From: Escherichia phage 1-6af
DNA length: 64,000 bases
Strand: one strand, 5' to 3'
Sequence record: OR983333.1
A program made the position numbers and the translations under genes. The notes beneath the pieces are model-generated. The model searched no databases. It had not been told where the DNA came from and was given only the letters and a program-made list of their open reading frames with translations. Positions 59,771 to 59,917 of this stretch are shown one piece after another. The stretch's first letter is position 1; each line of letters starts with the position of its first letter.

Positions 59771-59917
59771 TGGTTACAGGTGTAGGATTCGAACCTACGC
59801 TCGGACTCCCTAGCCATCACCAAAGGAATGCATCCAATGGGCATACGGTCATTTGACCACGGGCGACTGCTTTACCGTAGGCTCTGCATTAGTGAGCCTC
59901 ATAAGCTATACCTGTAA
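59771..59917 (-). ncRNA. tRNA-like structured RNA (T-arm plus acceptor-like helix ending CCA; non-canonical length)
   Basis: GTAGG-TTCGAAT-CCTAC T-arm immediately 5' of ACCTGTA-A-CCA, pairing with 5' TACAGGT; ~147 nt, cloverleaf not completed by eye. Confidence 0.3.

What the first reader, a model, noticed from the sequence alone, without database searches (positions are those of the whole stretch)
59771..59917. tRNA-like element with canonical T-arm and CCA end but ~147 nt long
On the minus strand, GTAGG-TTCGAAT-CCTAC is followed directly by ACCTGTA-A-CCA, and the 7-nt acceptor strand pairs perfectly with TACAGGT 138 nt upstream. The interior has extra hairpins (AGGCTC/GAGCCT, ATGC..GCAT) instead of a standard D/anticodon layout. 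It sits 29 nt upstream of the first gene of a small-gene operon. It could be an intron- or insert-containing tRNA, a tRNA-derived regulatory RNA, or a tRNA mimic.
Basis: seen in the sequence. Interest (0 to 1): 0.5.

Follow-up and report, generated by a model that had tools for sequence, protein, structure and literature searches.

The report
tRNA-framed small RNA cassette in phage
A 146-147-nt phage RNA gene has the two ends of a tRNA (acceptor stem, T-arm, CCA) wrapped around a non-tRNA core; it is an unannotated, horizontally exchanged relative of the "extra" stable RNAs long known in phage T4's tRNA cluster, and its function is unknown.

Summary
On the minus strand at 59771-59917, a perfect T-arm (GTAGG-TTCGAAT-CCTAC) is followed by ACCTGTA-A-CCA. 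That strand pairs with TACAGGT 138 nt upstream.

It is not a decoding tRNA. ARAGORN and Rfam give no tRNA call, and it has no D-arm or anticodon arm. The one intron-tRNA model (Arg-CCT, ARAGORN -i) is broken in 5 of 7 homologues.

The window is a Kuravirus (phiEco32/SU10-like coliphage). The element lies in a ~300-nt insertion that SU10 lacks. A 94% identical copy occupies a tRNA slot in the tRNA array of Klebsiella N4-like phages (GADU21, HS106). It is inserted there exactly at the CCA-AAT punctuation between tRNA-Tyr and tRNA-Ser.

Three compensatory pair changes support the acceptor stem and two internal hairpins.

Best reading: a tRNA-framed stable small RNA cassette, cut out by RNase P and trimmed to its encoded CCA. 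It resembles T4 species 1 and 2 RNAs (rnaC, rnaD), whose function is still unknown.

Its neighbours in the window are modules that, in N4-like and other phages, flank an unannotated tmRNA-like tag module (ANDDVVLMAA*). The window itself has no tag, and the element lacks G3:U70.

New member of a known kind; moderate interest.

The parts
59771..59917 (-). tRNA-framed small RNA gene (147 nt as flagged; the predicted mature RNA is 59771-59916, 146 nt, if RNase P cuts before U59916)
   Evidence: Sequence, fold, 7-sequence alignment and pair counts. Exact cassette boundaries come from comparing GADU21 with FBKp27.
59910..59916 (-). Acceptor 5' strand UACAGGU. It pairs with 59775-59781 (ACCUGUA).
   Evidence: Perfect 7 bp. 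Pair 7:138 of the alignment changes G-C to A-U in 3 of 7 sequences. In the related 125-nt elements of KP8 and PhAPEC7, pair 4:69 is U-A or C-G, against A-U here.
59782..59798 (-). T-arm GUAGG-UUCGAAU-CCUAC
   Evidence: Local Rfam tRNA hit of 14.8 bits covering only model positions 44-63; T-loop consensus match.
59771..59774 (-). Discriminator A plus encoded CCA, followed by AAU (the CCA-AAU punctuation seen in phage tRNA arrays)
   Evidence: T4 uses the same ..CCA AAT.. junctions between tRNA-Arg, rnaD and rnaC.
59879..59899 (-). Hairpin 1: AGGCUC / GAGCCU with a 9-nt loop A-N-UAAUGCA. Loop position 2 takes all four bases; the rest of the loop is invariant.
   Evidence: Pair 21:37 changes G-C to A-U in a compensatory way; alignment A2.
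59815..59845 (-). Extended hairpin UAU-GC-CCA-UU-GGA-[UGCAU]-UCC-UU-UGG-UG-AUG
   Evidence: MFE and alifold structures. Pair 85:91 changes A-U to G-C in XT32.
59918..59981 (-). Module S2: a 64-nt conserved RNA module (AGUCCGGACGAUAUCUG..CAGAUGGAGCCAGG-UGGAAUC-CCUGGCAAUUAG) immediately 5' of the element
   Evidence: About 90% identical to a segment of the tRNA region of many N4-like phages. Also present inside the long tag-bearing RNA of Shigella phage DS8, with a compensating change in the stem (GCCAGG/CCUGGC to GCAGG/CCUGC).
59982..60062 (-). Linker region of the insertion. It includes the hairpin GAUGAGG-CACC-UCCUCAUC (60047-60065) and a stem CUGUGG..UUACAG.
   Evidence: In XT32 the hairpin stem is kept while the loop is replaced. 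89% similar to a segment of the N4-like phage VTCCBPA_322.
60063..60145 (-). Module S1: a 20-bp perfect outer stem enclosing an H-type pseudoknot candidate (GUAGA..GGCC..UCUAC..GGCC). Present in all Kuraviruses.
   Evidence: Inverted repeat I1; conserved in SU10. The pseudoknot stem covaries: GUAGA/UCUAC, GUGGA/UCCAC in PhAPEC7, GAGGA/UCCUC in KP8.
59743..59770 (-). 28-nt A/U-rich trailer carrying the Shine-Dalgarno GGAGG of the downstream 103-aa ORF (ATG at 59742)
   Evidence: The same RBS and ATG are present in SU10 without the element.

Best explanation
The element is an unannotated gene for a roughly 146-nt stable small RNA. Its 5' and 3' ends form a tRNA-type acceptor stem, T-arm and ACCA frame around a ~112-nt non-tRNA core of several hairpins. 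It is a self-contained cassette that moves between enterobacterial phage RNA islands. In Klebsiella N4-like phages it sits in the tRNA array. In a minority of Kuraviruses, including this window, it sits with other RNA modules (S1, S2) in an early-region intergenic gap. Inferred mechanism: it is co-transcribed with the flanking same-strand genes. RNase P reads the 12-bp acceptor/T-stem stack, the T-loop and the ACCA, and cuts at the 5' end. RNase E cuts in the A/U-rich trailer, and 3' exonucleases trim back to the encoded CCA. The tRNA frame then protects the core from decay, as in engineered 'tRNA scaffolds'. The RNA is not a decoder in translation. What the core does is unknown. My best guess is that it binds or titrates a host or phage factor that recognises tRNA-shaped RNA. 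Shown here: the anatomy, the cassette boundaries, horizontal transfer, structure-preserving substitutions, and the absence of a cloverleaf. Inferred: transcription, processing, stability and any activity.
For: The frame is intact and far beyond chance. There is no tRNA call from ARAGORN or Rfam, and Rfam's tRNA model matches only the T-arm. In GADU21, HS106 and IMG/VR L010 the element lies between tRNA-Tyr and tRNA-Ser with the same spacing as real tRNAs (..CCA AAT|TACAG..). The sister phage FBKp27 has Tyr directly followed by Ser, so the element is an exact insertion at the CCA-AAT junction. The Kuravirus and N4-like copies are 94% identical while their flanks are unrelated, and similarity starts and stops at the element's ends. 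SU10 lacks it but keeps the flanks. Six of the 17 variable columns form three compensatory pairs in the acceptor stem and two hairpins. 97.7% of cells are paired, none of 500 shuffles reach the observed covariation score, and slid controls give 0-1. No ORF or coding signal lies on either strand. T4 rnaC (139 nt, canonical T-arm) and rnaD (ends in CCA) sit at the end of T4's tRNA cluster with the same CCA-AAT junctions. They were confirmed by Northern blot as RNAs of unknown function (PMC9697503). tRNA frames are processed precisely and protect inserted RNA in E. coli (PMC3753655).
Against: There are no expression or end-mapping data for this locus. All full-length homologues are at least 93% identical, and the element is no better conserved than neighbouring Kuravirus DNA (94.3% against 95.6% for XT32). 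The case for selection therefore rests on three compensatory events. Some copies look degraded: metagenome copy L017 has two mismatches in hairpin 1 and UCA in place of CCA, and XT32 has C at T-loop position 55. Most Kuraviruses do without it (12 of 50,697 phage records hold it at >=80% coverage: 10 Kuraviruses plus the two Klebsiella Efbeekayviruses). The U before the acceptor stem can pair with A73, which could shift RNase P cleavage.
Confidence: 0.55

Rival explanations
1. Evolutionary debris. The element is a decaying pseudo-tRNA or recombination scar from shuffling in phage tRNA and tmRNA-like arrays. It may still be cut by RNase P and so act only as a processing punctuation mark, but the RNA itself has no function.
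For: These islands are full of fragmentary tRNA-like pieces. Examples are the 'tRNA-Undet' and 'tRNA-OTHER' annotations, a CCA-less tRNA-Arg-like hairpin at 61487-61590, and S2 starting with the same 9-mer as the 3' half of a neighbouring T-arm. The element is dispensable in most Kuraviruses. Degraded copies exist (L017, XT32). Its conservation equals the background.
Against: Three independent compensatory changes keep helices intact. The acceptor stem also covaries in the related 125-nt elements: pair 4:69 is A-U, U-A or C-G. The frame (12-bp stack, T-loop, ACCA) is perfect in 6 of 7 copies. The cassette has been retained after transfer between two phage families.
Confidence: 0.25
2. It is, or descends from, the tRNA-like domain of a modular phage tmRNA-like system. 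In N4-like relatives a related 125-nt tRNA-like RNA lies just downstream of a tmRNA-type resume codon and tag ORF. In the window the tag part has been lost.
For: KP8, IMG/VR L011 and PhAPEC7 carry, in order: S1; CAUAAAU-GCA AAC GA.. tag ORFs (ANDDVVLMAA*, ANEEAYLMVA*); a pseudoknot-like hairpin; a CCA-ended minihelix; and the 125-nt tRNA-like RNA. Rfam tmRNA_permuted scores 33.2 bits, E = 6e-5. ARAGORN at a 90% threshold calls a permuted tmRNA with that tag. The tag peptide is conserved through conservative and synonymous changes in unrelated phages DS8 and ZCKp20p. The window element shares the frame and its 3' ~55 nt with the 125-nt RNA. It is flanked by S1 and S2, which are modules of those loci.
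Against: No G3:U70 alanine identity pair: C3-G70 here and in KP8 and PhAPEC7. No tag or resume motif anywhere in the window. No tmRNA hit on the element. In GADU21 the cassette stands alone in an ordinary tRNA array without S1, S2 or a tag. No conserved helix links the tag region to the tRNA-like RNA, and RNase P would separate them. The Rfam scores are below the gathering threshold.
Confidence: 0.1
3. An intron- or insert-containing tRNA gene (ARAGORN -i: tRNA-Arg(CCT) with a 62-nt intron) that yields a functional tRNA after splicing.
For: ARAGORN -i finds a cloverleaf in the window copy. The 5' AUAGCU resembles the start of a D-stem, which suggests descent from a tRNA.
Against: The model does not transfer. 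D-stem pair 13:21 and anticodon-stem pair 26:98 are each broken in 5 of 7 homologues. ARAGORN -i gives Val(tac) with a different intron in ShigP1 and nothing in 5 others. The proposed model costs 33 kcal/mol relative to the MFE. The covariation supports hairpin 1, which is incompatible with that D-stem. No self-splicing intron or other Rfam family matches. The proposed anticodon loop has U at position 37.
Confidence: 0.03
4. A cis-acting leader of the downstream small-gene operon: a tRNA-like 't-element' that sets the mRNA 5' end or regulates translation of the 103-aa ORF 28 nt downstream.
For: It lies next to the RBS. RNase P or RNase E cutting would create a defined 5' end for the downstream mRNA (inference).
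Against: The same cassette lies between two tRNAs in GADU21, with no ORF next to it. SU10 and most Kuraviruses express the same ORF from the same RBS without it. In ShigP1 the upstream context differs.
Confidence: 0.07

Closest known systems
Phage T4 species 1 and species 2 RNAs (rnaC, 139 nt; rnaD, 119 nt)
   Same: They are stable non-tRNA RNAs encoded at the end of a phage tRNA cluster and of similar length. rnaC has a canonical T-arm (CCGGGUUCGAAUCCCGG) closed by a terminal stem, with long hairpins in between, and rnaD ends in ..CACCA. The genes are joined by the same CCA-AAT punctuation. Their function is still unknown (PMC9697503).
   Different: No detectable sequence similarity: T4 is not among the BLAST hits at E<=1. 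rnaC does not encode CCA. The interior architecture differs. The present element is a mobile cassette shared by Schitoviridae and Kuravirus rather than T-even phages.
tRNA-like domain of tmRNA (ssrA), including two-piece/permuted forms
   Same: Acceptor stem, T-arm and ACCA without D or anticodon arms, enclosing a long structured interior. Relatives of the element lie next to a tmRNA-type tag ORF in N4-like phages.
   Different: No G3:U70, no tag ORF, no tmRNA model hit. It is much shorter than any one-piece tmRNA and stands alone in GADU21.
Engineered 'tRNA scaffold' for recombinant RNA in E. coli (Ponchon and Dardel)
   Same: A cargo RNA is embedded in a tRNA frame, so that it is processed precisely and protected from decay (PMC3753655). 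This is what I propose the frame does here.
   Different: The scaffold keeps the D-arm and replaces only the anticodon arm. Here both the D and anticodon regions are replaced. The scaffold is artificial, and the analogy concerns mechanism, not ancestry.
Canonical bacterial and phage tRNA (Rfam RF00005), including long-variable-arm and intron-containing tRNAs
   Same: Acceptor stem, discriminator, CCA, T-arm, a position in a tRNA array, and a vestigial 5' AUAGCU.
   Different: No D-arm and no 5-bp/7-nt anticodon arm. There are ~112 nt between the acceptor strand and the T-arm. 14.8 bits against a gathering score of 29.
Other RNase P-processed tRNA mimics (plant mitochondrial t-elements, mascRNA, plant-virus 3' tRNA-like structures, bacterial YrlA)
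   Same: tRNA-shaped modules used as processing or recognition handles. This comparison rests on my own knowledge; PMC1920247 surfaced for t-elements.
   Different: None of those families matches in Rfam. They occur in different organisms and contexts.

Membership tests
tRNA (RF00005 / ARAGORN) | Covariance-model or ARAGORN score above threshold | tested here: not met
   ARAGORN finds 0 genes in the window. Rfam gives no hit at gathering and only a local 14.8-bit T-arm hit against a gathering score of 29.
tRNA (RF00005 / ARAGORN) | 7-bp acceptor stem, discriminator and CCA, with a 5-bp T-stem and 7-nt T-loop | tested here: met
tRNA (RF00005 / ARAGORN) | D-arm and a 5-bp anticodon stem with a 7-nt loop at canonical spacing | tested here: not met
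   A 10-nt single strand follows the acceptor stem, then a 6-bp hairpin with a 9-nt loop. About 80 nt more precede the T-arm.
Intron-containing tRNA | The exons form the same cloverleaf and anticodon in all homologues | tested here: not met
   Arg(cct) in the window only, Val(tac) in ShigP1, none in 5 others. Pairs 13:21 and 26:98 are broken in 5 of 7.
tmRNA (ssrA) | G3:U70 alanine identity pair in the acceptor stem | tested here: not met
   Pair 3:70 is C-G in all 7 copies (alignment columns 4:141) and in KP8 and PhAPEC7.
tmRNA (ssrA) | Resume codon and tag reading frame ending in a hydrophobic ..AA-type C-terminus | tested here: not met
   No resume/tag motif in the window above chance. The internal frames show only non-synonymous changes (alignment A2). 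ARAGORN -m finds nothing at the default threshold and a spurious frame only at an 80% threshold.
tmRNA (ssrA) | Match to tmRNA covariance models | tested here: not met
   No tmRNA family hit at 59500-60200 (E<=10) or at 56000-64000 (E<=1).
tmRNA (ssrA) | Alanylation, SmpB binding, entry into stalled ribosomes | not testable with these tools
   Requires biochemistry.
Phage tRNA-cluster stable RNAs (T4 rnaC/rnaD type; a kind, not a sequence family) | Non-tRNA RNA gene in line with the tRNA genes of a phage, sharing their junction punctuation | tested here: met
   In GADU21, HS106 and L010 it lies between tRNA-Tyr and tRNA-Ser at CCA-AAT junctions. T4 uses the same junctions.
Phage tRNA-cluster stable RNAs (T4 rnaC/rnaD type; a kind, not a sequence family) | tRNA-like terminal structure (closing stem plus T-arm and/or CCA), 120-150 nt | tested here: met
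Phage tRNA-cluster stable RNAs (T4 rnaC/rnaD type; a kind, not a sequence family) | Accumulates as a discrete stable RNA in infected cells | not testable with these tools
   No transcript data available.
Phage tRNA-cluster stable RNAs (T4 rnaC/rnaD type; a kind, not a sequence family) | Sequence homology to T4 rnaC or rnaD | tested here: not met
   BLASTN of the element against 50,697 phage records, which include T4, returns no T4 hit at E<=1.

The most novel reading that the evidence does not exclude
The element is the free-standing tRNA-like partner of a modular, multi-piece phage trans-translation system, or more generally a tRNA decoy used against host factors that read tRNA shape. In N4-like, DS8-like and other enterobacterial phages the neighbouring modules (S1 pseudoknot, S2) surround an unannotated tmRNA-type tag ORF (AN[DE][DE]x[VY]L[MA][AV]A*). 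That ORF is conserved through synonymous and conservative changes, and a 125-nt relative of this element follows it. If these pieces work together, enterobacterial phages would carry a non-canonical tmRNA that is not alanine-specific, and this Kuravirus would hold a tag-less derivative of it.
Probability: 0.1. Interest if true: 0.75.

Novelty: new member of a known kind. Interest (0 to 1): 0.4.

Why it matters
Phage tRNA arrays are usually annotated tRNA by tRNA, and everything that fails tRNAscan or ARAGORN is ignored or mis-called as a tiny ORF. This element shows that such arrays, and the RNA islands derived from them, hold precisely bounded cassettes that use a tRNA frame as a processing and stability handle for other RNA. 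The cassettes are exchanged between unrelated phage families at the CCA-AAT junctions. T4's RNAs C and D have had no known function for about fifty years, so a second, unrelated and mobile example gives a comparative handle on that question. Because the cassette is present or absent in otherwise near-identical Kuraviruses, there are natural isogenic pairs for testing a phenotype, for example against tRNA-targeting defence systems. The nearby tmRNA-like tag modules in relatives deserve a study of their own.

Tried and rejected
- **Standard tRNA:** ARAGORN at default settings and Rfam at gathering found none.
- **Intron-containing tRNA:** ARAGORN -i gave inconsistent, non-conserved models.
- **tmRNA:** ARAGORN -m and the Rfam tmRNA models gave no hit on the element. 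Low-threshold ARAGORN frames are spurious, since every substitution in them is non-synonymous.
- **Small ORF inside the element:** AUG16..UGA69 (17 aa) has no Shine-Dalgarno sequence, and its substitutions are mostly non-synonymous.
- **Host origin:** no match in 5,426 complete E. coli genomes. Only the linker region and S2 match a few Klebsiella and Enterobacter plasmids.
- **A normal-length parent tRNA with the same frame:** none in IMG/VR.
- **Wider family by pattern scans:** IMG/VR gave 1-3 loci. The metagenome scan gave 3 true copies, with 17 chance hits (archaeal long tRNA-like genes and stretches without tRNA features). All four genome-contig hits were chance.
- **Helix-B model borrowed from KP8** (UUGGAU/GUCCGA): not favoured, because XT32's double change fits the MFE hairpin instead.
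- **A conserved helix tying the tag region to the tRNA-like RNA in N4-like loci:** none predicted.
- **Literature:** no paper links N4-like phages to tRNA-like or tmRNA-like RNAs.
- **Not done:** I did not build a covariance model. The family is too uniform (97% mean column identity) for it to reach further than BLAST within the sequences held.

Full report

Yes. On the minus strand the sequence reads UU-ACAGGU ... GUAGG-UUCGAAU-CCUAC-ACCUGUA-A-CCA.

- The acceptor-type helix is 7 perfect base pairs (59910-59916 with 59775-59781).
- It abuts a 5-bp T-stem with a textbook 7-nt T-loop.
- It is followed by a discriminator A and an encoded CCA.
- The T-loop consensus GGTTCRANYCC is expected 0.24 times in a shuffled 64-kb window. 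It occurs twice, both on this strand.
- The 147-mer folds as described (-49.3 kcal/mol, z = -2.4).
- The gap to the next ATG (59742) is 28 nt.
- No ORF of any plausibility overlaps the element.

**2. What it is not**

It is not a standard tRNA. ARAGORN finds no tRNA or tmRNA in the whole window. Rfam at gathering finds only a different, marginal tRNA at 61499-61577. A permissive Rfam scan of 59500-60200 matches the tRNA model only over the T-arm (14.8 bits against a gathering score of 29) and matches nothing else credible.

It is not an intron-containing tRNA.

- ARAGORN with introns allowed builds a tRNA-Arg(CCT) with a 62-nt intron from the window copy.
- On the 7-sequence alignment, that model's D-stem pair 13:21 and anticodon-stem pair 26:98 are each broken in 5 of 7 sequences.
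- ARAGORN -i calls Val(tac) with another intron in ShigP1 and nothing in five other copies.
- The model is 33 kcal/mol worse than the MFE.

**3. Where the window comes from, and the element's distribution**

The window is a Kuravirus (phiEco32/SU10-like, Gordonclarkvirinae). It is practically identical to Escherichia phages 1-6bf and FH3.

Relative to SU10, the window carries an insertion of about 300 nt (roughly 59757-60062). The insertion lies between a conserved 20-bp-stem hairpin module (S1, 60063-60145) and the unchanged RBS and ATG of the next gene.

Full-length copies of the 147-nt element exist in:

- about ten Kuraviruses;
- two Klebsiella N4-like phages of the genus Efbeekayvirus (GADU21, HS106) and one IMG/VR contig;
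- three metagenome contigs.

There is no match in E. coli genomes.

In GADU21 the element lies in the tRNA array between tRNA-Tyr and tRNA-Ser, spaced like a tRNA (..CCCCCACCA-AAT-TACAGAT...CTGTAACCA-AAT-TTAGGAAGG). In the sister phage FBKp27, Tyr is followed directly by Ser (..CCCCCACCA-AAT-TTAGGAAGG). The element is therefore an exact cassette insertion at the CCA-AAT junction.

The Kuravirus and Efbeekayvirus copies are 94% identical, while their flanks are unrelated. Similarity begins at TTACAG and ends at CCAAAT. The unit of transfer is the RNA gene itself.

**4. Structure from comparison**

The seven distinct copies (alignment A2) differ at 17 of 147 columns. Six of those columns form three compensatory pairs in the MFE/alifold structure:

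| Helix | Pair (alignment columns) | Change |
|---|---|---|
| Acceptor stem | 7:138 | G-C to A-U |
| Hairpin 1 | 21:37 | G-C to A-U |
| Extended hairpin | 85:91 | A-U to G-C |

Overall, 97.7% of cells are paired. None of 500 shuffles reach the observed covariation score, and slid controls show 0-1 such pairs.

Hairpin 1 has a 9-nt loop whose second base takes all four values, while UAAUGCA is invariant.

The AUGCA of that loop and the UGCAU loop of the extended hairpin are perfectly complementary. A kissing contact is possible, but both are invariant so it cannot be tested.

Two copies look partly degraded: L017 (two mismatches in hairpin 1, and UCA for CCA) and XT32 (C55 in the T-loop).

A more distant relative is a 125-nt RNA in KP8, IMG/VR L011 and Gamaleyavirus PhAPEC7. 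It shares the 5' UUAC.GGU, the 3' ~55 nt and the ACCA. Across these, acceptor pair 4:69 is A-U, U-A or C-G, and pair 5:68 is G-C or A-U. This further supports the frame. That RNA folds as a four-helix, cloverleaf-like shape with oversized arms.

**5. Closest known thing**

Phage T4 encodes two stable RNAs, rnaD (119 nt, ends ..CACCA) and rnaC (139 nt), after tRNA-Arg at the end of its tRNA cluster.

- rnaC has a canonical T-arm closed by a terminal stem, with long hairpins inside.
- The genes are joined by the same CCA-AAT junctions.
- A 2022 study still calls them RNAs of unknown function and confirms them by Northern blot (PMC9697503).

The present element has the same kind of anatomy and genomic position but no sequence similarity to them. 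Other CCA-ended, stem-closed non-tRNA units occur in these arrays (FBKp27; SU10), so this is a class rather than a one-off.

I found no paper linking N4-like phages with tRNA-like RNAs.

**6. How it most likely works (inferred)**

- The element is transcribed with the surrounding same-strand genes.
- The 12-bp acceptor/T-stem stack, T-loop and ACCA are what bacterial RNase P recognises (established knowledge), so the 5' end should be cut at or next to U59916.
- The A/U-rich trailer after the CCA is the usual site for RNase E cleavage, followed by exonucleolytic trimming to the encoded CCA (established knowledge for E. coli tRNA operons).
- A tRNA frame makes embedded RNA precisely processed and nuclease-resistant in E. 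coli (PMC3753655).

I therefore read the frame as a natural scaffold and the ~112-nt core as the cargo. Without a D-arm and anticodon arm it should not decode. The cargo's role is unknown. Titrating or binding a factor that reads tRNA shape is my preferred guess, but nothing here tests it.

**7. An unexpected lead from the neighbours**

The modules flanking the element in the window recur in other phages around a tmRNA-type coding module.

- In KP8, L011 and PhAPEC7, S1 is followed by CAUAAAU-GCA-AAC-GA.. and a tag ORF (ANDDVVLMAA* or ANEEAYLMVA*). Then come a pseudoknot-like hairpin, a CCA-ended minihelix and the 125-nt tRNA-like RNA.
- S1 is a long stem around an H-type pseudoknot candidate, and its inner stem covaries.
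- Rfam's permuted-tmRNA model scores 33.2 bits (gathering score 47; E = 6e-5 on 700 nt). ARAGORN calls a permuted tmRNA with this tag only at a 90% threshold.
- The same tag module occurs in unrelated phages. In Shigella phage DS8 the tag is ANDDVVLMAA*, with GCG GCG where KP8 has GCT GCT, and it sits behind a sigma-70-like promoter. In Klebsiella phage ZCKp20p the tag is ANEEMYLAVA*.
- An S2 homologue lies inside the DS8 RNA.
- None of these is annotated, and ARAGORN at default settings is silent.

This suggests the islands derive from, or constitute, a modular tmRNA-like system. Several points argue against that reading for the element in hand:

- It has C3-G70, not G3:U70.
- The window contains no tag.
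- The cassette stands alone in GADU21.
- No conserved helix ties the tag RNA to the tRNA-like RNA.

I keep this as the novel case at about 10%.

**8. Verdict**

The best description is a tRNA-framed stable small RNA cassette: a new member of the kind typified by T4 RNAs C and D. It is mobile between Schitoviridae and Kuravirus, and its function is unknown.

Interest is moderate (0.4). It would be higher if the tmRNA-like connection or an anti-defence role were shown.

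Noticed in passing
window 61487-61590 (minus strand): A second tRNA-like element. Rfam scores it as tRNA at 29.7 bits (61499-61577), but ARAGORN is silent. It has an Arg-type anticodon loop (CUUCUAA), almost no D-arm, about 20 extra nt before the T-arm, and no CCA. Its acceptor stem runs on into a long flanking inverted repeat (AAGAGCUUCUAGC|GAGGAUG...CAUCCUC|GCUAGAGGCUCUU; z = -5.1). SU10 has a normal tRNA-Arg(tct) at this locus.
   Followed up: partly
window 60063-60145 (minus strand); also L001, L006, L007, L039:365-450, L003:1150-1246: Module S1: a 20-bp perfect stem enclosing an H-type pseudoknot candidate. The inner stem covaries (GUAGA/UCUAC, GUGGA/UCCAC, GAGGA/UCCUC) while GGCC..GGCC is invariant. 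It is present in all Kuraviruses. In N4-like phages it lies directly upstream of a tmRNA-type tag ORF, like tmRNA pseudoknot PK1. It is not in Rfam.
   Followed up: partly
window 59918-59981 (minus strand); L004:1500-1565, L003:1622-1685, L041:~1272-1335: Module S2: a 64-nt segment about 90% conserved across many N4-like phages, a few Klebsiella and Enterobacter plasmids, and Shigella phage DS8. It has a T-arm-like hairpin (GCCAGG-UGGAAUC-CCUGGC) whose stem changes in a compensating way in DS8. In N4-like phages it is always followed by a 67-nt 'tRNA-Undet' whose loop contains GUGCAC.
   Followed up: partly
L003:1227-1420 (KP8), L011:~11345-11540, L039:430-620 (PhAPEC7), L040:880-1000 (ZCKp20p), L041:880-1000 (DS8): An unannotated tmRNA-like coding module in several unrelated enterobacterial phage groups. 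It has the resume context CAUAAAU-GCA and tags ANDDVVLMAA*, ANEEAYLMVA* and ANEEMYLAVA*, conserved through synonymous and conservative changes. Rfam tmRNA_permuted scores 23-33 bits (below the gathering score of 47). ARAGORN detects it only at a lowered threshold. A BLAST of the PhAPEC7 locus (S1 through the 125-nt RNA) hits 372 phage records in all; the tag-region part of the query is what matches the unrelated phage groups.
   Followed up: partly
L001:~1177-1289 (SU10, just after tRNA-Arg): Another unannotated long tRNA-like RNA (~113 nt) ending in UCUGG-UUCGAUU-CCAGA-UAGUCC-ACCA. Its acceptor stem would read G1-C72, G2-C71, G3:U70 with A73, which is the alanine (tmRNA-like) identity set.
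   Followed up: no
L038:566-636 and 716-~812 (FBKp27 tRNA array): Two more non-tRNA units in a tRNA array. Each is closed by a terminal stem and ends in ..ACCA-AAT or ..AACCA-A (GAGAGU...ACUCUC-ACCA; GAAGUG...CACUUC-AACCA). This suggests that CCA-ended cassettes are common in these arrays.
   Followed up: no
window 59984-60154 (+ strand); L008:1501-1590 (GADU21): Small 'hypothetical protein' CDSs are annotated on the opposite strand in XT32 (the equivalent of the 56-aa ORF) and in GADU21 (30 aa, UOX39425.1). They overlap these structured RNA modules and are probably spurious calls.
   Followed up: no
L014, L016, L018-L023, L027, L028, L031, L033, L035 (peat metagenomes; a Bathyarchaeia MAG): By-catch of the pattern scan: long tRNA-like genes with ~145-155 nt visible in the extracts (the 5' start was not delimited), of the form GCGGGGG...CAGUCGCCCGUGG...GGGGUUCGAAUCCCCUCCCCCGCACCA. 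They share a 13-mer with the element by chance. They are probably intron-bearing archaeal tRNAs and unrelated to this finding.
   Followed up: no
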